Part shown: positions 10,141 to 25,829 of the stretch, in pieces
Layout: each line of letters starts with the position of its first letter
Position numbering within the stretch: the stretch's first letter is position 1
Assembly (NCBI GenBank): GCA_009914755.4
Contig: CP086569.2
Coordinates: 18,464,001-18,528,000, forward strand
DNA from: the human T2T-CHM13v2.0 reference genome, Homo sapiens
Direction: 5' to 3'
DNA: 64,000 nt
Notes under the pieces: generated by a model
Told to the model about the DNA's origin: nothing
Databases searched by the model: none
Seen by the model: the letters and a program-made list of their open reading frames with translations, nothing else
Made by a program: the position numbers and the translations under genes

Positions 10141-12289
10141 GCTCACCTTTCGAATTACCAGCGAAGGCTTTCTCACCAAGTTTTTGTCACACTCTTTCCC
10201 CACCAGTTACCCCTTCCTGAAGATTCGCTCATGGACCCCTGGGGAAGATAGTGGTCTGCCTTATGACCAAAAGACTGGAAAATTTTGAGTGCTTTCTATC
10301 AGGGCCGTTGCCTGGCATGCATGCACTCACCCCCAAAGTCCCGCTGTTTATCCACCTTTCTCTCTGGGGCAAAAGGCCTCTCCGAGGCCGACACAACACG
10401 ATAGTACACAGAATCTTACCGCACTCGCTCCTGCGTCGTGGGCGCACTTGGCAGAGTGAAACAAGGAACTTGGCGCTCAACAGAGGAGGCAGCATCTCTT
10501 ATCGAGTGGGAGGGACCTGCCTCACTCATCCGCCTCGCCCCGCTCAACGACCTCTTCAGGATGCACTTGCAAACACCGTGGTGGCGGTTATACGAGAGGC
10601 CACTTGGGGTTGGCACAACCCGCCACCATTTTGTCTCGGGCAGTCTGGAGCACTCCTGGATCACCACAAAGGCCCTGGTCGTGTCAACCCTCTCGCATCC
10701 CAGAAAGGGCAGCATGATGTTTGGTAGGGACATGCCCCATGGCCCCGGAGAGGTGCAGTGTCCACCCGCAAGGCAACAACCACAGGAAGCCAGAGCAAAG
10801 GTGCCCGCTGTGTCAGAGGACCCCACCAATCTTCTTGAAGTCACGAGGCTCAAGGCGTGAGGGCAGCGAGGTCACCGCAAATTCCCTGCCCCATGCCTCC
10901 CAACACACTACCCGTGAGTGGGGAAGAGAGACAAGGGGCCCGACAAGCAGAAGAAGAAGAACTCTTCCATTAACTGTGTATTTCCATCCTTTGCTTCTCG
11001 TGGCTTACTCCCAGCCTGGGAGAGCGTAAAGTCACCACATCCATCGTGAAAAGCCCAATAATGGGCGGTGGTTGAGCTGGGGTCAGTCTTGAAGAAACTG
11101 ATGAGCATAACAGCCCAGCCAGGCTCACTCCGGGATAGGGACAGCAGACAATTTAAGGTGGAATGCCTGACATTCACAGCGAAGAGCCAACAGAGTGGGG
11201 TTGTTCTGACCACCCTGTGCCCGCAGCCGGGAGCACACTGGTCACGGGAGCCCGAGCTGCCTTCCCTGCCAGGGTCAAAGGCCCAGAAACCTGGGGCACC
11301 ACGGACAGTTATGACACTAGGATGCGTGAGAGCAGGCACACAGGTCCCAGCAATCAGCTAAAACTGGAACAGGGCCGGTTAGCTGGGTTACCAGTATACC
11401 AGAGCTTCACACGCATCTAGAGGCCCAATGTAATTGCCAGGCAGCGTGTCAGCAACAACCTGGTGGCCCAAAATGTCGACTCAGAGTGAAAGATATACCT
11501 TGCCTGGTGGAGGGGTGTCGAGTCAGTGACCACACCACCTGAGCAGAAACGCGTGACCTGGACATCTTTCCCAAAAAAAGGCCACCATGGCAGCCAGACA
11601 CGGAACACCCAGGGCCCTCTGGTTGACCCCAGGACACACACAGGAGCAGCACTGGGCCAGGGACAAACTCCTGGTTACCCGTACAATGCAGGGGCTGGCC
11701 CATTTTTCCAGAGCTAGACTGGGAGTTATTTTTGGCTGGCCCCTAGCATGACTGGATCACATGAGGGACCAAAGCCTGGCCAGGTGCCACCTCTTGGACC
11801 ACATGCATGCTCAGGGACCGCTCTCCAACTCTGCATGGGGACTTCAAAAAAAAGATCAGGGCAGAGGGACTAGGGCTTGGCAGGTGCATCAGACCTGCAC
11901 TGGCCTGCCACTGGGCCGGGAAGGGCATCCCCAGCCACCAGCGCCATGCCCAATACGTCCTTGTGGATCTCGGGCCAAGCCTCAGGAGTTGTGGCATGCT
12001 GTTCGACCAGCCAGGGCAGCCCCACACTGCCCTGGGGCACGGAAGCACCGCGACAGCCTCCCCCAGCAAAGCCCTGGACTGCCAGCTCTGACTCACAAGT
12101 GACGCGCCAGAGTCCCAGATGGCAGGGCAGCCCATGACTGGGAAACCCAAACCATGAGTCGAAGTCTTTTTGAGGCCGAAAACGCAGCCCCTCCTCCCCA
12201 ACTTCACAGAAACCGTTCTCCAAACGTGTCTCTGCATAGACTGCGACTGAGTCAAAAGACAACCCGTGGCGCATGAGAGTTTGAAGATG

Positions 12290-13200
<911 letters not shown>

Positions 13201-13324
13201 GAGGGCGGTGGGGGGTGGGGTGGGTGGGGGATCGGTGGCTATGATGCACTTTCCACTTTACCAATATGCTGGCTGGGGAAAGACAAATATTAAACATAAC
13301 TTAACGGTAAAAACTGACTATGGC

Positions 13325-13810
13325 GGCTTAGCCAAGGTACTTGAGTTTCCCTAAGGAGGGAGGGAGAGAGGAAGAGGAAAGCTGCCGGCATGAAGGAGAG
13401 AAACCGAGGTGAGGGGGAGGGGACAAAACAGGACGGGGAAGGGAAGGAGGCACAGTAGTTCACTCTGGAATGTTTTCTAGCCTGGGGTGGGTGGGGGGAC
13501 ACGGAGGGCAACTCAGGAAACAAGCTGATTCTGGAAAAGACACCGAATTCATAGTGTTGCCATCCCTGCTTTGAAAGGTGTGAAGTGCATGCTGCTTCCT
13601 CCACACTCATTCAGTTAATCCTGAGAAATGTCTTTTAGTCCCAAACGCCTGACATCTACCTGCTTTCACAACATCTGGGGAGAATCAGAAAAGTCCCCAC
13701 TAAAGAAAAGGCCTAGGGTGGAACTGCCGTCTGTAAAACCCAGGCAGAAGAGTCCACGCGGGTCAAACACACAAAGAATAGGAAGCAACTGATGAAGAAG
13801 ATCAACAATC
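13325..13810 (+). repeat. Low-copy LTR-like repeat, copy 2
   Basis: Related to 9880-10060 and 42600-42960 through the shared block ggaaacaag(c/t)tga(t/c)tctg(g/a)aaa..gtgttgccatccctgctttgaaaggtg(t/g)g..cttcctccacactcat.cag. Confidence 0.5.
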
Positions 13811-14226
13811 TGGCCCAGCCAGAATCTCCAGAGGTTTTCTAGGCAACGATGGAGGGGATGAACGGATGGAGGTAGGGCGGGCCTCTGAGGGTTGGGGTAG
13901 GACTGAGGGGAGCAGAGAGAAGACACACTCACCCCTTACCATGGGCGGGCGGCCACGGCATCCTGTGAGCCTCCTAGACTTCAAAAACGGTGACAGCTAG
14001 ATGACACGAGACGACAACGGATGGAAGTGTCAGCCCGGCGCCCTTTCAGGAGCTCCCAACAACTAATCCACCACAGCCCTTGCGGGGGAAGAAGCACCAT
14101 GGCTCGGGAAAACATGGAGAAACACATGTGCCTATGCACGTGCACACGCACACCATATCCCACAATATAGACACGTTTATACCGTGATAATGAGAGAGCC
14201 CATTTCTAGTGCAAAAGAAGCAGTCT

Positions 14227-14560
14227 GGGCTTGGCGGCCCAAGCCAGTAACCCCAGCACTTTGGGAGGCCAAGGCGGGAAGAACACCTGAGGTCAAGAGT
14301 TCCAAACCAGTCTGGTCAACATGGCAAAACCCCGTCTTTAAGAAAAACGCAAAAATTAGATGAGCATGGTGGTGGGCACCTGTAATCCCAGCTCCTCAGG
14401 AGGCTGAGGCAAGATACTCACTTGAACTCAGGAGGTGGAGGTTGCAGTGAGCTGAGATCTCACAACTGCACTCCAGCCTGGGCAACAGAGGAAGACTCCA
14501 TCGCAAAAAAAAAAAAAATAATAATAAATAATAAATAAATAAATAAATAAATTGATTCCA
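14227..14560 (+). mobile_element. Alu with poly-A followed by an (AAAT)n/(TAAA)n microsatellite
   Basis: gggcttggcggcccaagccagtaaccccagcactttgggaggccaaggcggg...gcctgggcaacagaggaagactccatcgc(a)n, then aataataaataataaataaataaataaa. Confidence 0.85.
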
Positions 14561-14775
14561 CCTTTAAATGTATGCACTGTTAAGATTACGCAGATAGCTT
14601 AGAAGGTATATAAGCTTTATACACATTTGTAATTTTGAGTCAATCTGGTGATATTATCAGGCCGTCTCCCTGTAAGTGGTCACAGAAATAAAAACTCCCT
14701 TTTTTTAGTTCATCTGTATGTCATTATCAGGTCGGGAGAATAAGCAGCCCCACCCTCAGTTTGGTCTGGGAACAA

Positions 14776-15030
14776 TTACACTCCAGCCTGGGTGACAGAG
14801 GGAGATTTTGTCTCAGAAAAGAAACAAGAAAACCATTTTTTAAAAAATCGAAGATAATTAGCGGGGCATTGTGCTGTGCTGTGGCTCATTCCCATGCCTG
14901 TAGGCCCAGCTACTCTGGAGGCTGAGGCAGAGGAATATTGCTTTGAGCCTAGCAGTTCAAGGTCACAGTAAGCTATGGTCCTACCACTGCATTCCAGCCT
15001 CGGCGACACAGGAAGGCCCCGTTTCTAAAA
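14776..15030 (+). mobile_element. Alu fragments (a 3'-end piece plus a right monomer)
   Basis: cactccagcctgggtgacagagggagattttgtctc ... ggctcattcccatgcctgtaggcccagctactctggaggctgaggcagaggaatattgctttgagcc... Confidence 0.6.
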
Positions 15031-16068
15031 AATACATGAATAAATGAATAGATGAATGTAAAAAAATGCAAGGAGGTGGCAGAGCACGGGAAGGCTTGAC
15101 TCATTCCTAAACACTAGAGCAGAAAAACAGGACCATCCATGTGAGACATAAGCTATTCCAAATCACAGTGGAATAAGCAAGTGGAAGAGCAAGGCCCTGC
15201 CATTATCTGCAGATAACCATTCTTTCTATCCAGCTAGCCTCTGGCTATTAGTAGAAACCAAATGCCCAACCATGGGGCCACGAAGTTACCATGTGAGCTG
15301 AGCCGCTCATCACACACTGGGCGTAAGTGGGTGTGCACAGCAGCACTCCAGCATGACACAGAAATGCTGTGGACCTGATTGGGTCCGAACAGATCCTGAA
15401 GCACAAGTAAGTTCCATGAGAAAGTGGCCCAAATGCCCATGATGCCTAGTCAAGAAATGAGCCGAGTTAAGAAATTACACATAGCCGGGCGCAGTGGCTC
15501 ATGCCTGTAATCTTATCACTTTGTGTTGGGGAAACCAGCCCTACACCAGCCAGCAGGTACCACGAGTCCAGCAGAGACAAAGGAGTTGTAAAGAGAAAAA
15601 AATAAATGTTTAAAAGGCGGGTCCAGGGGACCGGAGCATCTGAGGCTTGTTCACAGCCCAGAGCTCTCGAGCTCTGCTGAATTTGTTGGTTTACAAGCTC
15701 TTTGTTCTTAGGGCAGATGGGAGGGGTAGAAAGGGATAAGGTAGAGGATTAATCAGTGTCACTCAATAAGATGTGTAGCAGCAGTTTTTTGTGAATTTCC
15801 TTGAGCAAAGGCGTGTGTCTAAACTACTCAAGATCTTTAACTTATCAGGACTGAAATGGGTGTGAGTGGGTTTCAGGAGGAGCCAACACGTTTGGTTATA
15901 CTCCACTGCTTCAAAGGAGGTATCTCCCTTGCCAACCTGTGGAATGCCTCTGAGCTGTTATGCTTTCAGGGCATAAAGACATGAAGGCAATAAGGAGATA
16001 TTTCTCCTCAGAGGCCACCCATGGCTCCACATGGATGTCTCATACAGGGGAGACCAACCCATCTGGCA

Positions 16069-16351
<283 letters not shown>

Positions 16352-16587
16352 TTAATTTAATTAAAAAAAGAAAGTACACGTAAAATTATACATAGCTGGG
16401 TGCAGTGGCTCACACCTGTAATCTCAGCAATTAGGGAGCCTGAGACAGGTGGATCAGTTTGTAGCATCATTGCTGCCTTGAAAGGACAGAGAAGTATGTT
16501 TATGTCACTGTTGGTTTTATTTTTTTTTCCTTTTTTACCGGAAACACTTACTTTTTATATTATTATTATTATTATCATTATTATTAT

Positions 16588-17180
<593 letters not shown>

Positions 17181-17984
17181 ATGTATATTCATTTTTTTAA
17201 CTGATCAAAGAACAATCAGAACCACTCATCAGGGTGGCAATTCCCTTGGCAACAAGGGAGGGAGAAACTTGGAGGTGGGGGTGGGGGCAGTGGAGAAGAC
17301 ACAGCTGCCTTGGGCTGTGCCCAGGTGCCATGAGCTTTCTTCCTCCTTGAGGCCTCGGTTTTCAGAGTAACAATGGCTGCTAGGTGATGCCCATTAGGTG
17401 AATAGGGTGGCATATGCCAATGAGAGTGTCAGCCCGCAATGAATTGGCATCACCCGGAGTGGGGAAAGGAGGGGAAGGATGGAAGTCCCCACAGTACACT
17501 GGGTCACAGCACCCTCGCAGGCAGTCCCCATAACTAATCAACCAGGGCCCCTGGGGGGGGGACACAGCCTAAGTCCCCACCCATCAGATCATCTGGAACT
17601 TCCATCCAAATACCGACTGGAAATTCTCTCAGTCAAGCTCCAAACCTAAAAGAATCACTGCCACACCCACCAGGACTAACACAACTTTTAAAAGAATCAT
17701 TTCTGTGTTTTAGGTGCATCCGTGTATTTCTGTACAACAAAATTATTTATTTTAAATGTTACTAGTTTTTTGCTTCTTACGTGTACAGTCTCATGATAGA
17801 TAGACAAGGGGACTCTTCAGTCCAGAGTCCATGAGGCCAGAAGCTGACATCCTCAGTTCTTATTCAGAATGAATTTAAACAAGCCAGCCAAGCGCCCTGC
17901 CATGAAACTCCTGGAAAGACAAGCGATTAAGAAAAGAAAAGAAAAACAAAGTAAAAAACAAACAAACAAACAAAAAACAATGCC

Positions 17985-18125
17985 GTCAGGAGCAGTAGCT
18001 CATGCCTTTAATCCCCGCACTTTGGGAGCCTGAGAGCGGGTGGATTCCTTGATTCCAGGCAATCAAGACCAGCCTTGGCAACATGGTGAAACCTCATCTC
18101 TTCAAAAATACAAAAATTAGCTGGC
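17985..18125 (+). mobile_element. Alu left-arm fragment
   Basis: gtcaggagcagtagctcatgcctttaatccccgcactttgggagcctgagagcgggtgga... Confidence 0.6.
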
Positions 18126-18261
18126 TTCATAATTTGGACTCAAAATTAATAAATAAATAGTTTGAAATTTAAAATGTAAAAATATCTTAATTGCTGTATT
18201 CTGTTATTTTTGCATCCTATCGTGAGAAGGACATAATATAGGTATTATCTGTCTCTCTGTT

Positions 18262-18515
18262 TGCAACAGGGTCTCGCTCTGTCTGTAGCCCAGGATGGAG
18301 TGCAGTGACATCATCATGGCTCACTGCAGCCTCAACCACCCCAGGGTCAGGTGATTCTCCCACTTCAGCCTCCTGAGTAGCTAAGACCCCAGGCATGCAC
18401 CTCAGGTTTTGGCTGTGTTGTCCAAGGCTTGTCTCGAGCTCCCAGGCTCAAGAGATCCTGCCGCCTTGGCCTCCCAAAGTGTTGGGGTTTCAGGCTTGAG
18501 TCGCCGCACCCAGCC
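18262..18515 (-). mobile_element. Old, diverged Alu (AluJ-like) on the minus strand
   Basis: gggtctcgctctgtctgtagcccaggatggagtgcagtgacatcatcatggctcactgcagcctc...ctcccaaagtgttggggtttcaggcttgagtcgccgcacccagcc. Confidence 0.7.
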
Positions 18516-19090
18516 TGACTTAATACATCTGGTCTCACTACGTCCTGACTACATGCCCTTGAAGAACTCAAGAGAGTTAGCAAGAGACTTTCAGCATTCT
18601 CTCCATAAACCAGTGAGGTGGATGGCGGCTGAGTGTCCTGGGCTCCTGTGGTTTTAGGTGGCCATGCGTAGAGGATAGATTTCAAATGTTTCCAGAGAGG
18701 TGGGAGCCACAGTCATTCGGGGCATCCAAGCTTGGGATACAGTTTCTGACAGCATCTTAAGGGCCAGGAAGGGCCAGGATCTGCCAAGGCTGGTGTTCCA
18801 CGGTGGGGACAATGGAACCCAAGGTAGAGGGAGCCATCCATCCACACTGAGCTCCAGCCCTAGACCCCACCATGCAGATTAAGTCAGAAGGAACAGTCCT
18901 TCCTCCTACACGCCACATCCCTCCACTCAACTTGGGAGCAGATCTGTTTTCCAAACATGAGGTGACTCTCTGTTTGAAATGAATCACAAGGGGCCCAGCT
19001 TTCTTGAGTCGGCAGGATAAAGAAGTCATTCTGTGACATAGAATGAGATATGCCTCGAATCTAGACTCTCCAGTTAAAACCAATGATGGT

Positions 19091-19357
19091 GGCCAGGTGC
19101 AGTGCCTCATGACTGTCATCCCAGCACTTCGGGAGGTCAAGGCTGGCAGATCACGAAGTCAGGATTGTGAGATCAGCCTGGCCAATATGGTGAAATCCTG
19201 TATTTACTAAAAAAACAAAGGTTAGCTGGATAGGGTAGCACGCACCTGTAATTTCTGCTACTCGGGGGGCTGAGGCAGGAGAATCGCTGGAAGCAAGGAG
19301 GTGGAGATTGCAGCCAGCCGAGACCATGCCACCGCCTTGGCGACAGAAGGAGACACC
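19091..19357 (+). mobile_element. Alu
   Basis: ggccaggtgcagtgcctcatgactgtcatcccagcacttcgggaggtcaaggctggcagatcacgaagtcagga... Confidence 0.85.
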
Positions 19358-19627
19358 ATTTACCTAGAGGGATAAAAGAACAACAGGGTCCGCACCAGGA
19401 TGGAAGTTCCCTAGGCAGTGAGGGAGAGAGGGAGGGGCCTCCAGAAGGGAAGGAGAGAAAGCAGTTGCCCCAGGCTCTGTGAAGTGGCCAGGCGGCCCTC
19501 AGTGCCACCTTTAAATAACAGTGGCCACTTTCAATAACAGTGGCCTTTCAATAACAGTGGTCACTAGGTGATGACCTACTTTTAAAAAAAGCAAAACAAA
19601 ACATTTATTTTGAAAAATTGCAATTTA

Positions 19628-19890
19628 GGCTGGGCGCGGTGACTCACACCTGTTATCCCAGCACTTTGGGAGACTGAGGCAGGCAGATCCCTGAAGGTCA
19701 GCCTGGGCAACATGGTGAAACCCTGTCTCTACTAAAAAAACAAAAGTTAGGTGAGCAGGGTGGCATACACCTGTAATCCCAGCTACTCAGGAGGCTGTGG
19801 CAGGAGAATTGCTGGAACCAGGGAGGTGGAGATTGCAGCCAGCCAAAAAAACCCCACAGCCTGGGCTACAGAACAAGACTCTATTTAAAA
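19628..19890 (+). mobile_element. Alu
   Basis: ggctgggcgcggtgactcacacctgttatcccagcactttgggagactgaggcaggcagatccctgaaggtc... Confidence 0.85.
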
Positions 19891-20329
19891 TAAATTAGTA
19901 AATAAATAAGTGAACGAATATATGTAAAAAGAAAAATGCAAGGAAATGGCGGAACTCGGGAAGGCTCCCCTCATTCCTAAAGACCAGAGCAGAAAAACAG
20001 GACCATCAAGTTCAGACACAGGCCATTTTGAATCTGTTGTCACCATGCTCAATTGGTGCCAAAGAAGGGTAGGCTTCTGTGCCACCCATCTGTCATCACC
20101 ACCCTTGTCAAATATAATTGCAGGGTCACGACTGCACAGAGATCTCTCAACCCACTGAATGCATCCGTATTTTTATGAGCCCCGTTGGGAGAATAAACAG
20201 GATATTTAGAAAAGTACTCATCGTGCGTTATTTGGTCTCCCATGTCTCTTGTGAAACCAAACAAATTTATGGGCCATTTTTTTTTCTTTCCAGCACTTGA
20301 CCATCCATACAGTACCTAAATAAAAGAAG

Positions 20330-20700
20330 AATGAATGCATTTTATGAAACAAGGAGAAAAACAACGAAGCGAAAGTCTCAGAGGCTTGTGATACACAGGG
20401 GTATACAGAATGAGGAGACTTCCAGAATCCAAACAAAGACAGACGGAGGGATGGGAGGAAACGAATTGAGAAAAGAGACACACAAAAAGATGAAGAAAAA
20501 TAAATGCAAAGAAAAAGAGACAGAGATGTAAAGGGAAGAAAGATAAAGAAAATAGAAAGACAGAGAAACAGAAAAAGAGAATAAGAAATGACAGAAAGAA
20601 GGGAGGAAGAAAAAGAGAGAGAAGAAAGAGAAAGAAAAGAAAGAAAATGAAAGAAAGAAAGAGGAAGAAAAAAGAAAAATAAAGGAAATAAAAAAGAGAG
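20330..20700. repeat. Purine-rich low-complexity tract; paralog of 12330-12545
   Basis: aaagaaagaaaatgaaagaaagaaagaggaagaaaaaagaaaaataaaggaaataaaaaagagag. See feature 12290-12545 for the alignment. Confidence 0.6.
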
Positions 20701-20704
20701 AAGT

Positions 20705-20890
20705 GCATCAAGGTTTACACCTGTAATCCCAACACTTTGGGAGTTTGACATGGAAGAATTGTTTGAACCCACCATTTTGAGACCAGCCCTGACAATACAG
20801 TGAGACCATGCCTCTACTTAAATAAAATAAAATAAAATAAAATAAAATAAAATAAAATAAAATAAAATAAAATAAAATAAAATATAATAA
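20705..20890 (+). mobile_element. Degenerate Alu fragment followed by (AAAAT)n at 20815-20880
   Basis: gtttacacctgtaatcccaacactttgggagtttgac...ccagccctgacaatacagtgagaccatgcctctacttaaataaaataaaataaaat... Confidence 0.6.
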
Positions 20891-20894
20891 TGTT

Positions 20895-21260
20895 AGCCGG
20901 GCATGATGGCAGGCGCCTGTACTTTCAGCTCCTTTGGAGCCTGAGGTGGGAGCATCCCTTGGGCTCGGGAGGTGGAGGCTGCGTTGGGCCTTGGTCAGGT
21001 AATGCACTGCAGCGTGTTGTCCAGGCTGGTCTTGAACTCCTGAACTCTAGCCAACTGCCTGCCTCAGCCTCCGAAATTGCACCTGCCATATTCAACGGCC
21101 CTGGGGGTATCAGTGACAGACTTTAGTAAGCATGGTTGTTATGCCATATTGCCCAGGTTGGTCTTGAACTTGAACCCGGGAATTTGAGGCTACGGTGAGC
21201 CAAGGTCATGCCACTGTACTGCAGTCTGGGTGATAAAGCAAGACCCCATCTCTAAATATC
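20895..21260. mobile_element. Cluster of Alu fragments in both orientations
   Basis: gttagccgggcatgatggcaggcgcctgtactttcagctcc.. (plus strand), gcagcgtgttgtccaggctggtcttgaactcctgaactc (minus strand), and ccactgtactgcagtctgggtgataaagcaagaccccatctc (plus strand). Confidence 0.55.
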
Positions 21261-21429
21261 TAATTAATAAAAACAATAACAATAATATAAACAATAATAC
21301 AAATAAATAACAAACAACAGCAATAATAATAAACAAACTAGTGAGAGTGAAAAATATAAAAATAAAAAAGGTAATTTAGATCACAATTAATTGCAGTAAT
21401 TTCAAGGAGTTATTTCTTTAACCTGTCTC

Positions 21430-21625
21430 TCTTACTTTCTGAAACAGGGTCTTTCTCTGTCACTCAGGCTGGAGGGCAATGGCGTGATCATGGCTCACTG
21501 CAGCTTCGACATCCCAGAATCAAGCTATTCCTGCAATCTCAGCCACTTGGAAGGCTGAGATGGCAAGAACACCTGCGGGAGCCCAGGAAGGTTGAGGCTG
21601 TGATGAGCCGAGAATGCAATCTCAC
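21430..21625. mobile_element. Alu fragments (minus-strand left part followed by plus-strand right part)
   Basis: ctgaaacagggtctttctctgtcactcaggctggagggcaatggcgtgatcatggctcactgcagc.. and gaggctgtgatgagccgagaatgcaatctcacactcc. Confidence 0.5.
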
Positions 21626-21879
21626 ACTCCAACTTTTCAAAAAAAAGAAAAGAAGAATTAGAAGGAGAAGAAGTAAACATAAAACAACAGCAACTTCAGT
21701 GTGTAGAAAGGGGAGTAAGAAAAGTAAAAGGAAAAAGAAAAACAAAATGAAGAGCAGCTGAAAATACTGTGGAAACAGTTGGAGAGGAAGAAATGACGTG
21801 GTGAAAGAGCAGCCTCTAGTGGATGCAGGTGGTAGTGCTGCTGACCAGAGTTACCCGTTCTACCTTAACAATCCCAAGT

Positions 21880-22560
21880 TGACGGTCAAGTCCAGCGCTC
21901 GCCGATGACATCTTATGGACCCAGGGCTCGCGGAAGGACCCAGTTGGAACTTTATCACACCAAGCCGGCCCACCTTTGCTGCCATCTAACTCCGCCGACC
22001 TGCCCGCAGTTCCCCACTCTCCGCTGGTTGACCGGGGCAGCGGAGAGAGGAGGAAAGCACAAAGGCAGTGACTGGTTCATATCCCATCGCCGCGCGCCTG
22101 GGGTGGGGAGAGGGGCCGTGACCCCATCGGCCACCACTGGGCACGCGTGAACACTACTCGGACAGGAACCGCAGGGGCACACCCTCGGACAACCACTCCT
22201 GAGTCATTCTCACCAGGCTCGGTGAATCCAATCTCAGCCCCTGGAGGAGTTCCCAGCGGGGTGCGAGGAGGAGGTGGAATCGGAGAGGTGGAAGGAGGAG
22301 CAGGGGAGCCACCTCTACCTCAGCAACCCCTGGCGCGGCACCTTGGAAAGCCCGAGGGTGGGGACGTGAGCCTCCCAATGCACAGCGGGCGCCGATGAGC
22401 TCTCGCGAGAGACACCCACTGCGTGATCCGGGGCTCAGGGGTGGGTGGGCATGAGCGGGCCAGGGAAGAGGTTCTCGGGAACAGGAGAAAGGAAGGAAGG
22501 TATATGTCAAGGGCTGAATTACACAGGACACACCACATCACACACCACATCACCAGGTCC
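21880..22560 (-). other. CpG-rich segment probably derived from the rDNA 3' ETS and terminator region, contiguous with the 28S fragment
   Basis: It sits immediately 3' of the minus-strand 28S 3' end. The reverse complement of ..gcacccgtgtgcggaggacc.. resembles the start of the 3' ETS (CGCGCGCGTGCGTGCGGGGGGCCC). A degenerate Sal-box-like motif ctccgctggttgaccgggg lies at ~22025, about 525 nt past the 28S end, and many CpGs are retained. Confidence 0.4.
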
Positions 22561-23195
22561 TCCGCACACGGGTGCAGAGAGCCTTGTGTGGAGGTCTGAC
22601 TTTCAATAGATAGCAGCGAGGGAGCTGCTCTGCTCCATGGAAAACCCTGACCCAGAAGCAGGACGTCTGCGAATAGTTTAGCATCAGGTTCCCCACAAAC
22701 ACGTTATGTGATGGGTCAGGGGGTGACCGCCTTTCTGGCAGCAGCCCGTTTCCCAGGATGGGGGTTTCTCTGCACCGGATCCCGGTTTCCGGAGCACGGC
22801 AGGACATGCGCCCAGCGCGGGGCGGAGCGGCACACCGGAGGGGACTGCAGAAGACTGCCTACCCGAGGCCAACAAAGGTTCCGTGGCGCTGCCTTATCAT
22901 TCCTCATGGGCGGGATTCTTAGAGTCCTTCAGTCCTAATCCCGCTTATAGTAGCTTTACCCCATTGGCTCCTCAGACAAGGACATACACCAAATGTCTGA
23001 ACCTGTGATTTCTCTACTAATGAGCAGGATTACCATGGGAACAACACATGGGCAACAACACATGGGGAACACACGCAGTAAAACTAACCTGTCTCACATG
23101 GGTCTAACCATAATGCTTTCCAGGGCATGCGCACCGCTCTCAGGTGAATCCATTCCAGTCTGCCTTGTCCTTCGCAAAGAAAAGAGAGCTCTGCA
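22560..23195 (-). pseudogene. 28S rRNA 3'-terminal fragment (rDNA-derived pseudogene) with an internal deletion; truncated by an Alu at 23196
   Basis: ggtctgactttcaatagatagcagcgagggagctgctctgctccatggaaaaccctgacccagaagcaggacgtctgcgaatagtttagcatcaggttccccacaaacacg... is the reverse complement of the final ~300 nt of human 28S (..GGGGAACCTGGCGCTAAACCATTCGTAGACGACCTGCTTCTGGGTCGGGGTTTCGTACGTAGCAGAGCAGCTCCCTCGCTGCGATCTATTGAAAGTCAGCCC). The segment 22890-23100 matches the reverse complement of ..GGCGGGATTCTGACTTAGAGGCGTTCAGTCATAATCCCACAGATGGTAGCTTCGCCCCATTGGCTCCTCAGCCAAGCACATACACCAAATGTCTGAACCTGCGGTTCC..GAGCAGGATTACCATGGCAACAACACAT... It then jumps to the reverse complement of ..CCCTTCACAAAGAAAAGAGAACTCTCCCCGGGG. 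Heavy CpG-to-TpG/CpA decay is visible. Confidence 0.85.
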
Positions 23196-23440
23196 GGGGC
23201 GGTGGCTCATGCCTGTAATCCCAGCAATTTGGGAGGTTGAGGAGGGCCGATCATCTGAGATCAGGAGTTCAAGATCAGCTTGGCCAACATAGTGAAACCC
23301 TGTCTCTATAAAAATACAAAAATTAGCCGGGCATGATGGCGGGTGCCTGTAATCCCAGCTACCCAGGAGGCTGAAGTGGGAGAATCGCTTGAACCCGGGG
23401 AGGCGGATGCCTCCCGCTTGAACCCGGCAGGCGCACATGC
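23196..23440 (+). mobile_element. Alu (5' end slightly truncated, 3' end rearranged)
   Basis: cggtggctcatgcctgtaatcccagcaatttgggaggttgaggagggccgatcatctgagatcaggagttcaagatcagc... Confidence 0.8.
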
Positions 23441-23590
23441 CACCATGCTGGGCTAATTTTTGTATTTTTAGTAGAAACAGGGTTTCACCATGTTGGCCAG
23501 GCTGGTTTTGAACTCCTGACCTCAAGCAATCTGCCTGCGTTAGCCTCCCAAAGTGTTGGGATTACAGGCGTGAGCCACCGCACCCAGCGT
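23440..23590 (-). mobile_element. Alu fragment on the minus strand
   Basis: ctgggctaatttttgtatttttagtagaaacagggtttcaccatgttggccaggctggttttgaactcctgacctcaagc...ggattacaggcgtgagccaccgcacccagc. Confidence 0.8.
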
Positions 23591-23654
23591 ATGTGTATAG
23601 AGCTCCTCGAGAGGAAAGCCTCTATTATTACCATTGCAACAGTAGAAAAAGTAA

Positions 23655-23955
23655 AGCTTTTTTTTTTTCTTTTGAGTAAGAGTTTCACTCTTGTTGCCCA
23701 GAATGCAGTGCAATGGCCTGATCTCAGCTTACTGAAACCTCTGCCTCCCAGGTTCAAGCTATTCTCCGGCGTTGGCCTCTCAGGAAGGTGGGATTACAGG
23801 CATGTGCCACCACACCTGGCTAATTTTGTATTTTTAGGAGAGACAGAGTTTCACCATGTTGGTCAGGCTATTCTCGAACTCCTGACCTCAGGTGATACAC
23901 CTGCCTCGGTCTCCCAAAATGCTGGGATCACAGGCATGAGCCACTGTGTCTAGCT
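23655..23955 (-). mobile_element. Alu on the minus strand
   Basis: A T-run followed by gagtaagagtttcactcttgttgcccagaatgcagtgcaatgg...gctgggatcacaggcatgagccactgtgtctagc. Confidence 0.85.
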
Positions 23956-25519: not shown

Positions 25520-25828
25520 TTTTTCTTTTTTGAGACAGAGTCTCACTCTGTTGCCCAGTCTGGAGTGTAGTGTAGTGATCTGGGCTCACTTCAAGCTCTG
25601 TCTCCCGGGTTCACGCCATTATCCTGCCTCAGCCTCCTAAGTAGCTGGGACTATAGGCACTCACCACCACGCCCAGCTAATTTTTTTTTTTTTTTTTTTT
25701 TTTGTATTTTTAGTAGAGACGGGATTTCACCATGTTAGCCAGGATGATCTCAATCTTCTGACCTCATGATCCACCTGCCTCAGCCTCCCAAAGTGTTGGG
25801 ATTACAGGCGTGAGCCACTGCACCCAGC
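25520..25828 (-). mobile_element. Alu on the minus strand
   Basis: gagacagagtctcactctgttgcccagtctggagtgtag...gttgggattacaggcgtgagccactgcacccagcc. Confidence 0.85.
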
Positions 25829-25829
25829 C

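What the first reader, a model, noticed from the sequence alone, without database searches (positions are those of the whole stretch)
21880..23195. rDNA-derived fragment: 28S 3' end plus downstream ETS/terminator-like sequence on the minus strand, with asymmetric CpG decay
Positions 22560-23195 are an unambiguous reverse-complement match to the last ~300 nt of 28S rRNA and to an upstream 28S block, with one internal deletion; an Alu cuts it off at 23196. Immediately beyond the 28S end, where the 3' ETS and Sal-box terminators lie in real rDNA, the sequence at 21880-22560 is CpG-rich. A degenerate TTF-I Sal-box-like motif (ccgctggttgacc compared with CTGGTCGACC) sits about 525 nt past the 28S end, close to where terminator T1 lies in functional rDNA. 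The 28S-derived part has lost most CpGs to TpG/CpA, as expected for a methylated pseudogene. The adjacent ETS-like 600 bp retains many CpGs and looks like a CpG island, which may mean it has been kept unmethylated and may be an active regulatory element. Upstream in rDNA orientation, at lower coordinates, lie CT-rich tracts (GA-rich on the plus strand at 21640-21790, 20330-20700 and 12290-13200). These resemble pyrimidine-rich stretches of the rDNA intergenic spacer. It is therefore possible that a larger, rearranged IGS-like block underlies 12-22 kb, but I cannot establish this by eye.
Basis: partly seen in the sequence, partly recalled or inferred. Interest (0 to 1): 0.55.

Follow-up and report, generated by a model that had tools for sequence, protein, structure and literature searches.

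The report
Decayed copy of an rDNA spacer
The flagged stretch is one end of a 13-kb, heavily mutated, non-functional copy of the DNA between two ribosomal RNA genes; this kind of genomic fossil is already described, and its CpG richness looks inherited from the parent sequence rather than a sign of a new regulatory element.

Summary
The 28S match is real: window 23107..22578 (minus strand) is the last ~540 nt of 28S rRNA (Rfam 82 bits; BLAST 78.5% to human rDNA, E 1e-115). BLAST stops at the 28S end. A transition-tolerant alignment shows the homology continues through the 3'ETS to terminator T1 (score 51.5; shuffles 20.2±2.7; wrong-region controls 18-21). The Sal-box-like site (CGGTCAACCAG, 22034..22024) aligns to human T1.

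On the same strand and in rDNA order lie an IGS unit (19529..19371, plus two weaker copies), distal IGS, a T0-like Sal box, UCE, core promoter (Rfam pRNA hit; start-site equivalent at 11453) and 5'ETS to about +1450 (down to 10140). It is a DNA-level copy of an inter-unit rDNA junction. Robicheau et al. 2017 described this kind of element.

The claimed asymmetric CpG decay is not supported. The 28S part keeps 35% of ancestral CpGs and the 3'ETS part about 27%; o/e is 0.56-0.61 in both. The CpG-island call is borderline (lenient criteria only) and not specific to the ETS part. The 28S part keeps about three times more CpGs than same-divergence Alus nearby. High GC content may account for this, and methylation cannot be tested here.

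The parts
22578..23107 (-). 28S rRNA 3'-terminal ~540 nt, decayed (76-78% identity to human 28S; 18-nt insertion/duplication and small deletions)
   Evidence: Rfam LSU_rRNA_eukarya 82.3 bits, model positions 3006-3399 of 3401; BLASTN E 1e-115; full alignment
22476..22577 (-). 3'ETS +1..+94 homologue, contiguous with the 28S end
   Evidence: Anchored transition-tolerant alignment runs from the 28S end to human +94; 54% identity with many CpG-to-TpG changes
22365..22475 (-). Segment of about 110 nt inside the 3'ETS-like stretch with no detectable counterpart in human rDNA (insertion in the copy, or loss from modern rDNA)
   Evidence: Scores at shuffle background against all references
22113..22364 (-). 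3'ETS homologue of human +73..+350 (58% identity, a further 18% transitions)
   Evidence: Local score 51.5 against shuffles 20.2±2.7 (maximum 33), z = 11.7; wrong-region controls 18-21
22000..22109 (-). End of 3'ETS plus terminator T1 region (human +290..+420)
   Evidence: Collinear local alignment, 61% identity, score 32.5; permissive BLASTN hit 22013..22055 to human +361..+403, E 6e-4
22024..22034 (-). Sal-box T1 homologue CGGTCAACCAG (consensus GGGTCGACCAG; central CpG decayed to CpA)
21800..21999 (-). CpG-rich stretch after T1 (o/e 0.64) with no detectable rDNA homology; where human rDNA has further Sal-box repeats
21714..21790 (-). Pyrimidine-rich tract that may correspond to the T-rich tract at human +911..+985 (weak, low complexity)
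   Evidence: Score 27, not significant on its own
19371..19529 (-). Unique IGS segment, homologue of human IGS about +10.65..+10.83 kb past the 28S end
   Evidence: BLASTN 83.5% over 133 nt, E 7e-33, single copy in the window after Alu masking; extended alignment at 76%
17201..17392 (-). Second, weaker copy of the same IGS unit
   Evidence: Score 33.2 against controls 16.3 and 15.7; shared blocks in the alignment
13722..13865 (-). Third, weaker copy of the same IGS unit
   Evidence: Score 34.1 against controls 17.6 and 15.8; alignment
11897..12493 (-). Distal IGS, homologue of human -1344..-536; includes a Sal-box homologue TGGTCGAACAG at 12009 (human Sal box at -648)
   Evidence: BLASTN 70-74.5% identity, E 1e-53 and 5e-32
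11619..11629 (-). Promoter-proximal Sal box (T0) homologue GGGTCAACCAG (human GGGTTGACCAG at -175)
11559..11609 (-). Upstream control element (UCE) homologue, 82% identity
   Evidence: element coordinates from PMC6281188
11501..11590 (-). Rfam pRNA (promoter-associated RNA) match
   Evidence: 39.1 bits against a gathering score of 34
11439..11498 (-). Core promoter element homologue (84% identity); transcription-start equivalent G at 11453
   Evidence: sequence read
10140..11438 (-). 5'ETS +19..about +1450 homologue (63-66% identity), truncated where an Alu fragment begins
   Evidence: BLASTN E 1e-104; alignments (score 403.5)

Best explanation
Window 23107..10140 (minus strand) is a degraded, DNA-level (not retrotransposed) copy of the junction between two tandem 45S rDNA units. 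In order it holds the last ~540 nt of 28S, the 3'ETS, terminator T1, a condensed and Alu-invaded intergenic spacer, the promoter-proximal T0 Sal box, UCE, core promoter, and the first ~1.45 kb of the 5'ETS. It was detached from an rDNA array tens of millions of years ago (inferred) and has since decayed by CpG transitions, other substitutions, indels and Alu insertions. It encodes no rRNA. Its terminator and promoter motifs have lost their CpGs, so it most likely has no Pol I function (inferred). The flagged 21880-23195 interval is its 28S/3'ETS/T1 end. The CpG richness there is left over from an extremely CpG-dense parent sequence, and high local GC content may have slowed its decay. Shown here: homology, collinearity, strand, truncation and CpG statistics. 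Inferred: age, mode of origin and lack of function.
For: - 28S: Rfam 82 bits; BLASTN E 1e-115 to human rDNA recovered from public contigs.
- 3'ETS and T1: transition-tolerant alignment z = 11.7, with 0 of 300 shuffles reaching the observed score. Reversed-reference, wrong-strand and wrong-region controls are all at background. The stretch also scores above background (33-36) against three other mammals' 3'ETS.
- IGS: a unique segment at 19529..19371, E 7e-33, with two weaker copies.
- Distal IGS, promoter and 5'ETS: collinear BLASTN hits with E 1e-53, 5e-32 and 1e-104; Rfam pRNA above its gathering score.
- Promoter elements: T0, UCE and CCE are 82-85% identical to human, against 64-66% for the surrounding spacer.
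- Not a gene: no SSU or 5.8S match anywhere in the window.
- Not a retrocopy: sequence continues past the mature 28S end into spacer.
- Decay: 28S non-CpG divergence is 11.4-11.8%, and two thirds of CpGs are lost, equally to TG and CA.
- Same kind of element described by Robicheau et al. 2017, PMC5381670.
Against: - Only about 14 kb of the ~31-kb human IGS was available as reference (first 11.4 kb and last 2.5 kb). Most non-Alu sequence between 21.7 and 13.9 kb is therefore unassigned, and part of it could be unrelated DNA inserted into or between two separate rDNA fragments.
- 3'ETS identity is low (54-61%). The T1 piece alone (score 32.5) is at the top of the shuffle range.
- 22365-22475 and 21800-21999 have no detectable rDNA counterpart.
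- The 28S part retains about three times more CpGs than Alus of similar non-CpG divergence in the same window (35% against 11%, p = 2e-5). Purely neutral methylated decay does not predict this unless GC context slows it.
Confidence: 0.88

Rival explanations
1. The CpG-rich 21880-22560 stretch is a maintained, unmethylated CpG island acting as a regulatory element (promoter or boundary) that was built from rDNA spacer sequence.
For: - The interval passes the lenient island thresholds: GC 0.63, o/e 0.61, 681 nt.
- The 28S part of the 3' block retains more CpGs than same-divergence Alus (35% against 11%, p = 2e-5), and the 3' block as a whole retains more than the 5'ETS block (31% against 15%, p = 8e-4).
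- The CpG substitution rate is known to fall with lower germline methylation (PMC3218846).
Against: - Retention is no higher in the ETS part than in the 28S part (27% against 35%), so nothing singles out the proposed element.
- The stricter thresholds (GC at least 0.55, o/e at least 0.65, at least 500 nt) are not met, and a sliding-window caller does not call the region.
- About two thirds of ancestral CpGs are already lost to TG/CA, which shows methylation-type decay has acted.
- The same o/e (0.56) is seen across 7 kb of neighbouring satellite.
- The CpG substitution rate also falls with GC content (PMC3218846), which offers an alternative cause.
- The comparison with the 5'ETS block is biased, because ETS reference CpGs are not all ancestral.
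Confidence: 0.08
2. Two unrelated events: a small 28S-containing fragment at 22-23.1 kb and a separate promoter/5'ETS fragment at 10.1-13.1 kb happen to lie 9 kb apart. The DNA between them is not IGS.
For: Most non-Alu sequence between 21.7 and 13.9 kb has no match in the IGS portions I could obtain. The pericentromere-like neighbourhood (satellite array, 5S-like units) is the sort of place where unrelated fragments accumulate.
Against: - Same strand and correct order.
- An intervening unique IGS segment at 19529..19371, again on the same strand and in collinear order, plus two weaker copies.
- Similar degrees of decay in all pieces.
- The untested ~17 kb of human IGS could account for the unassigned sequence.
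Confidence: 0.06
3. A processed (retrotransposed) 28S rRNA pseudogene that landed next to an unrelated GC-rich sequence.
For: rRNA-derived retrocopies annotated as LSU-rRNA fragments are common in primate genomes (general knowledge). BLAST alone stops at the mature 28S end.
Against: - No A-tail follows the 28S end (sequence read).
- The homology continues into the 3'ETS and T1.
- IGS and promoter, which are not part of mature rRNA, are present in order.
Confidence: 0.02

Closest known systems
Displaced, degraded rDNA units that include the IGS (Robicheau et al. 2017, Genome Biol Evol; PMC5381670)
   Same: 45S-derived and IGS-derived sequence in canonical order at a site outside a functional array. 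It is degenerate through SNPs and indels, cannot arise by reverse transcription because IGS is present, and sits in a satellite-rich, probably centromere-proximal setting.
   Different: Those examples were found by megablast (28-nt exact words, hits up to 2 kb) and span most of a 43-kb unit. This one is far more decayed (63-78% identity). It covers only the inter-unit junction (540 nt of 28S to +1.45 kb of 5'ETS) and has a spacer of about 11 kb (about 8 kb without Alus) instead of about 30 kb. That paper does not discuss CpG content, promoters or terminators.
Functional human rDNA 3'ETS and terminator cluster (Sal boxes T1-T5, consensus GGGTCGACCAG)
   Same: Same order (28S end, GC-rich ETS, pyrimidine run, Sal box). 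The window's site aligns to T1, including its CTTCCTCCTC flank.
   Different: Only one Sal-like site instead of four to five in about 320 nt. It matches 9 of 11 positions and the central CpG is lost. It lies at +544 rather than +382. CpG o/e is 0.58 rather than about 1.
Human rDNA promoter (T0, UCE -156..-107, CCE -45..+18) and pRNA
   Same: All three elements are present in order, at 82-85% identity. The Rfam pRNA match is above its gathering score.
   Different: Most CpGs within the elements are mutated. There is a 3-nt deletion just after the start site. The 5'ETS is truncated at about +1450 and no 18S follows.
CpG island
   Same: GC 0.63 and o/e 0.61 over 681 nt pass the Gardiner-Garden and Frommer type thresholds.
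   Different: Borderline, fails the stricter thresholds, not distinct from the adjacent 28S-derived DNA or from the nearby satellite, and shows clear TG/CA decay products.

Membership tests
Degraded displaced rDNA unit (non-processed rDNA pseudogene) | Significant homology to rRNA coding sequence | tested here: met
   Rfam LSU 82.3 bits; BLASTN 78.5% over 493 nt, E 1e-115
Degraded displaced rDNA unit (non-processed rDNA pseudogene) | Homology extends into spacer that is absent from mature rRNA (ETS, IGS, promoter) | tested here: met
   3'ETS z = 11.7; IGS E 7e-33; distal IGS, promoter and 5'ETS E 1e-53 to 1e-104
Degraded displaced rDNA unit (non-processed rDNA pseudogene) | Pieces collinear with, and on the same strand as, a canonical unit | tested here: met
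   All pieces lie on the minus strand in the order 28S, 3'ETS, T1, IGS +10.7 kb, IGS -1.3 kb, T0, UCE, CCE, 5'ETS
Degraded displaced rDNA unit (non-processed rDNA pseudogene) | Pseudogenic: truncated and diverged, cannot yield rRNA | tested here: met
   Only 540 nt of 28S; no SSU or 5.8S hits; 11.5% non-CpG divergence and indels
Degraded displaced rDNA unit (non-processed rDNA pseudogene) | Located outside a functional NOR, typically centromere-proximal | not testable with these tools
   No genome coordinates are available. The adjacent ~200-nt GC-rich satellite array fits a pericentromeric setting but was not identified by sequence.
Pol I terminator (Sal box / TTF-I site) | 11-nt consensus GGGTCGACCAG | tested here: not met
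   CGGTCAACCAG, 9 of 11, central CpG lost. The decay-aware core GGTYRACCAG occurs twice in the window against 0.77 expected, which is not significant as a count.
Pol I terminator (Sal box / TTF-I site) | Homologous position downstream of the 28S 3' end | tested here: met
   Aligns to human T1 with its flanks
Pol I terminator (Sal box / TTF-I site) | Cluster of several Sal boxes | tested here: not met
   One site within 1.5 kb of the 28S end, against four within 2 mismatches of consensus in human +382..+710
Pol I terminator (Sal box / TTF-I site) | TTF-I binding and transcription termination | not testable with these tools
   Needs ChIP or an in-vitro termination assay
CpG island | At least 200 nt, GC at least 0.50, o/e at least 0.60 | tested here: met
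   21880-22560 has GC 0.63 and o/e 0.61. The 28S-derived 22611-23017 also passes.
CpG island | At least 500 nt, GC at least 0.55, o/e at least 0.65 (stricter definition) | tested here: not met
   No call in 21.5-23.3 kb
CpG island | Unmethylated in the germline, with active chromatin marks | not testable with these tools
   No methylation or chromatin data. About two thirds of ancestral CpGs are lost to TG/CA.
Functional 45S rRNA gene / active Pol I promoter | Promoter followed by complete 5'ETS, 18S, 5.8S and 28S | tested here: not met
   5'ETS stops at about +1450 at an Alu fragment; no SSU or 5.8S Rfam hits
Processed rRNA retro-pseudogene | Ends at the mature 3' end, A-tail, no spacer sequence | tested here: not met
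   Spacer homology continues past the 28S end; no A-run at 22577

The most novel reading that the evidence does not exclude
The relic is more than inert junk. Its GC-rich 28S/3'ETS end (and perhaps the promoter block) has been partly protected from germline methylation, as the threefold excess of retained CpGs over same-divergence Alus might suggest, and it now acts as a CpG-island-like regulatory or boundary element. In parallel, the locus would preserve a usable snapshot of an early-primate rDNA spacer (about 8 kb without Alus, with T1, T0, UCE, CCE and a repeated IGS unit already in place) next to decayed 5S-like units. That would hint at a former nucleolus-organiser-like region.
Probability: 0.08. 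Interest if true: 0.5.

Novelty: new member of a known kind. Interest (0 to 1): 0.3.

Why it matters
As an example of a known class it matters little on its own. It has some value for people who study rDNA:

- Very old rDNA relics escape BLAST-level searches in their spacer parts but can be recovered with scoring that tolerates CpG decay.
- It offers an outgroup-like fossil of the spacer, terminator and promoter from before most of the Alu insertions and expansions of the modern 30-kb human IGS.
- It is a caution for annotation. Rfam pRNA, LSU and 5S hits, and borderline CpG-island calls, at such loci are inherited features of the parent sequence and not evidence of function.

Tried and rejected
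- **Standard BLASTN** (word 9; also word 7 with +1/-1 scoring) of 21700-22600 against human rDNA found nothing in the 3'ETS except a 43-nt hit at T1 (E 6e-4). A transition-tolerant alignment overturned it.
- **Semi-global alignment with plain scoring** was not significant (z = 1.3).
- **23108-23195 as 'upstream 28S block'**: rejected, scores at shuffle background against 28S and all other references.
- **GA/CT-rich tracts (21640-21790, 20330-20700, 12290-13200) as evidence of IGS homology**: rejected as evidence, because they score equally against the reversed reference.
- **Sal-box motif count as statistical evidence**: rejected; 2 observed against 0.77 expected, and 21 of 100 shuffles reach 2. 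Only the positional agreement counts.
- **Shared Alus between the relic and the human IGS for dating**: the Alu next to the 19.5-kb IGS piece is in the opposite orientation to the one in the human reference. The AluY-like element at 12549-12833 is much younger than its surroundings. Neither is usable as an orthologue.
- **The ~200-nt satellite and the 5S-unit spacer as rDNA-derived**: no convincing similarity to the rDNA references.
- **Viral-contig scan for the rDNA promoter**: no hits.
- **Literature search for the satellite's sequence words**: no hits.
Full report
**What is in the flagged interval**

Reading 21500-23700 and scanning the whole window with Rfam confirmed a minus-strand large-subunit rRNA match at 23046..22578. 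It covers model positions 3006-3399 of 3401 at 82.3 bits, so it includes the 3' end of 28S. The same scan gave three unexpected hits:
- the NoRC-associated promoter RNA family (pRNA) at 11590..11501, on the same strand as the 28S piece (39.1 bits; gathering score 34);
- two full-length 5S rRNA matches on the plus strand at 402-514 and 2312-2427.

A permissive scan added only Alu-type (SRP-like, mir-1268-like) matches. The window is Alu-rich primate DNA.

**Getting a real reference**

No human genome database was available, so I searched public contig collections for exact rDNA words.
- The 28S 3'-terminal 30-mer found 34 metagenome contigs. Most are human rDNA running from the 28S end into the spacer: L032 reaches 11.4 kb past the 28S end, L006 reaches 11.0 kb, and L011 holds 3147 nt of 28S plus 6.2 kb.
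- A 22-mer at the human transcription start found 7 contaminated bacterial assemblies. These include L038 (2.5 kb upstream plus 3.1 kb of 5'ETS) and L039.
- The middle ~17 kb of the human spacer was not obtained.

**The 28S part**

BLASTN aligns 23049..22582 to the last ~500 nt of human 28S at 78.5% identity, E 1e-115, with a short extra hit at 23107..23078. A gapped alignment shows one continuous match, 23107..22578, to the last ~540 nt. It contains an 18-nt insertion/duplication and deletions of 4, 11, 7 and 2 nt.

The next 88 nt (23108-23195) resemble no rDNA reference. The Alu starting at 23196 therefore does not directly truncate the 28S homology.

**Does homology pass the 28S end?**

With BLASTN it does not. 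The alignment stops at 22582. Even a permissive search found only a 43-nt hit, 22013..22055, against human +361..+403 (E 6e-4).

The parent sequence has GC about 0.82 and a CpG roughly every 6 nt, so CpG transitions alone would wreck BLAST seeds. I therefore used Smith-Waterman with transitions scored 0.
- Window 22577..21800 (minus strand) against human +1..+900 scored 51.5.
- 300 dinucleotide shuffles gave 20.2±2.7 (maximum 33), so z = 11.7.
- The reversed reference scored 21.5 and the wrong strand 20.
- Equally GC-rich wrong regions (four 900-nt tiles of human 5'ETS, and ITS1) scored 18-21.
- The stretch also scored 33-36 against three non-primate mammalian 3'ETS sequences.

The collinear pieces are:

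| Window (minus strand) | Human position past the 28S end | Note |
|---|---|---|
| 22577..22476 | +1..+94 | contiguous with the 28S end |
| 22364..22113 | +73..+350 | 58% identity plus 18% transitions |
| 22109..22000 | +290..+420 | ends on Sal box T1 |
| 21790..21714 | +911..+985 (T-rich tract) | possible only; score 27, not significant alone |

Two stretches, 22365-22475 and 21800-21999, have no detectable counterpart. The ETS/terminator interpretation therefore survives its own refutation test, though only with a sensitive method.

**The Sal box**

Human references carry GGGTCGACCAG at +382/+388, +643/+649 and +700/+706, and a one-mismatch copy at +547/+553. The consensus is as given by Agrawal and Ganley 2018 (PMC6281188).

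The window has one site within 2 mismatches in the 1.5 kb past the 28S end: CGGTCAACCAG at 22034..22024, which is +544. Its central CpG has become CpA.

As a bare motif count it is not significant. GGTYRACCAG occurs twice in the window against 0.77 expected, and 21 of 100 shuffles reach 2. What matters is position:
- this copy aligns to human T1 together with its CTTCCTCCTC flank;
- the only other copy (11628..11619, same strand) aligns to the human promoter-proximal Sal box T0 at -175;
- a third, more decayed site (TGGTCGAACAG at 12009) corresponds to the human Sal box at -648.

**The larger structure**

The minus strand after the pRNA hit reads as a CpG-decayed core promoter and start site. 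BLASTN against L038 gives collinear matches:

| Window (minus strand) | L038 | Identity and E-value |
|---|---|---|
| 12484..12120 | 1198..1592 | 70.4%, E 1e-53 |
| 12112..11904 | 1780..1990 | 74.5%, E 5e-32 |
| 11870..10418 | 2114..3625 | 66.3% over 1540 nt, E 1e-104 |

- The gapped alignment runs from human -429 to about +1450. The start-site equivalent is at 11453, and truncation is at about 10140, where an Alu fragment begins.
- Identity by element: T0 region 85%, UCE 82%, CCE 84%, inter-element spacer 66%, 5'ETS 64%. This is the pattern expected if the modern functional elements evolved slowly and the copy simply decayed.
- After masking Alus, one further unique match appeared on the same strand and in collinear order: 19529..19371 against human IGS about +10.65..+10.83 kb (83.5% over 133 nt, E 7e-33).
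- Two weaker copies of the same unit lie at 17392..17201 and 13865..13722 (scores 33-34 against controls 16-18). Repeated units are reported in the human spacer (PMC6281188).
They are compositional resemblance only.
- No SSU or 5.8S sequence is present.

The simplest reading is a single DNA-level copy of an inter-unit junction, 23107..10140. Its spacer is about 11.1 kb, of which about 3.0 kb is Alu.

**CpG content**

The interval 21880-22560 has GC 0.63 and o/e 0.61, against 0.23 for the low-side flank. The asymmetry claim, however, fails.

| Segment | Reference CpGs retained | CpG o/e |
|---|---|---|
| 28S part | 19-20 of 55-56 (35%) | 0.56 |
| 3'ETS pieces | 20 of 74 (27%) | 0.58 (3'ETS to T1) |
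| post-T1 stretch | not measured | 0.64 |
| distal IGS | 16 of 66 | 0.37 (promoter/IGS) |
| promoter + 5'ETS | 38 of 246 (15%) | 0.49 (5'ETS) |
| ~200-nt satellite | not measured | 0.56 |
| Alus (pooled) | see below | 0.24 |
| rest of window | not measured | 0.21 |

The 28S and 3'ETS retentions do not differ (Fisher p = 0.34).
- Runs passing the lenient island thresholds occur in both halves (21795-22255 and 22611-23017).
- The stricter thresholds are not met, and a sliding-window caller places the window's clear islands in the satellite at 5.8-8.2 kb.
- The ETS part holds more CpGs because its source is richer: human 3'ETS has o/e 0.93-1.18 and GC 0.82, against human 28S 3' end at GC 0.65.

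**Is decay nevertheless slow?**

I used the window's 47 Alu pieces as a clock. The Alu consensus sequences were written from memory; the copies align to them at 69-88% identity.
- Alus with 9-12% non-CpG divergence keep 26 of 243 CpGs (11%).
- Those at 6-9% divergence keep 17%, and those at 12-16% keep 12%.
- The 28S piece has 11.4-11.8% non-CpG divergence and keeps 35% (p = 2e-5).
- The 3' block as a whole keeps more than the 5'ETS block (p = 8e-4). That comparison is biased, because ETS reference CpGs are not all ancestral.
- Alus inside the relic decay like Alus elsewhere in the window. The effect therefore belongs to the GC-rich sequences and not to the whole domain.

The CpG substitution rate is reported to fall with GC content as well as with lower methylation (Mugal and Ellegren 2011, PMC3218846). 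The ordinary explanation (GC context) and the interesting one (partial hypomethylation) cannot be separated here. I weight the ordinary one.

**Age and origin (inferred)**

Non-CpG divergence of about 11.5% in a segment whose parent is essentially invariant places the copy between the window's AluS (about 7-11%) and AluJ (about 12-20%) populations. That means tens of millions of years, probably early anthropoid or older. The orientation and age of neighbouring Alus gave no usable shared-insertion markers. Spacer sequence rules out reverse transcription. Whether this is a transposed array fragment or the last decayed unit of a former array cannot be told from the window.

**Comparison with what is known**

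Robicheau et al. 2017 (PMC5381670) described degraded near-full-length rDNA units with IGS on non-NOR chromosomes, enriched near centromeres. They were detected by megablast and dot plots. The present locus is the same kind of object, but older and smaller and visible only in part to BLAST. That paper does not discuss CpG content, promoters or terminators. I rate it a new member of a known kind, of modest interest.

**Neighbourhood**

Immediately beyond the truncated 5'ETS lies about 7 kb (2900-9850) of a very diverged ~200-205-nt GC-rich tandem repeat. Its period, composition, divergence and array size fit the published description of gamma satellite (PMC8125562), but I could not test the sequence. 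Before it are two 5S-like units 1.9 kb apart. To the right of 27.7 kb the window is ordinary AT-richer DNA with o/e 0.21.

Noticed in passing
window 400-1030 and 2310-2940 (+): Two full-length 5S rRNA Rfam matches (402-514 and 2312-2427; 53-54 bits, CpG-decayed). Each is followed by a T-run and each sits in a ~630-nt direct repeat, 1.9 kb apart and 72-87% identical. They look like two units of a decayed 5S-rDNA-type tandem repeat, lying 8-10 kb from the 45S rDNA relic and on the opposite strand.
   Followed up: partly
window 2900-9850: About 35 very diverged (60-80% identical) copies of a ~200-205-nt GC-rich (0.62) tandem repeat, some inverted, with CpG o/e 0.56. This array contains the only clear CpG-island calls in the window (5756-8171). 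Period, composition and array size fit published descriptions of gamma satellite (GSAT family), but the sequence identity was not tested. It shows no similarity to rDNA.
   Followed up: partly
window 11619-11629 (-) compared with L038 position -175: The promoter-proximal Sal box has lost its central CpG in both lineages, in opposite ways: the relic reads GGGTCAACCAG and functional human rDNA reads GGGTTGACCAG. This implies an ancestral GGGTCGACCAG, and shows that the functional human T0 is itself a CpG-decayed variant.
   Followed up: partly
window 12549-12833 (+): An AluY-like element (4.5% non-CpG divergence, 14 of 25 CpGs retained) is inserted in the IGS-derived block next to a (GAAA)n tract. 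It is much younger than its surroundings and unusually CpG-rich compared with the other young Alu in the window (25532-25829, 5 of 26 retained).
   Followed up: no
window 19500-19565: A short tandem triplication (17-19-nt unit CAGTGGCCACTTTCAATAA) has arisen inside the best-preserved IGS segment. The human reference has a single copy of this motif.
   Followed up: no
window 22578-23107 (-): At non-CpG sites the 28S-derived piece shows about equal numbers of transitions and transversions (23-25 against 22), an unusually low ratio for neutral decay. It may reflect misalignment around indels in the GC-rich expansion segment.
   Followed up: no
loci L001-L041: Human rDNA is present as contamination in many public metagenome contigs and in several bacterial genome assemblies and MAGs (e.g. 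records labelled Atopomonas, Chryseobacterium, Shinella, Rubrobacter MAG). L032 carries a ~740-nt duplication of the terminator repeat region relative to L006 and L011 (extra Sal boxes at +1289, +1385 and +1442).
   Followed up: no
window 15030-15164 and 19900-20034: A non-Alu direct repeat (77% identical, 4.87 kb apart). Each copy lies just upstream, in rDNA orientation, of one of the copies of the repeated IGS unit. This suggests the relic's spacer contains a multi-kb internal duplication.
   Followed up: no
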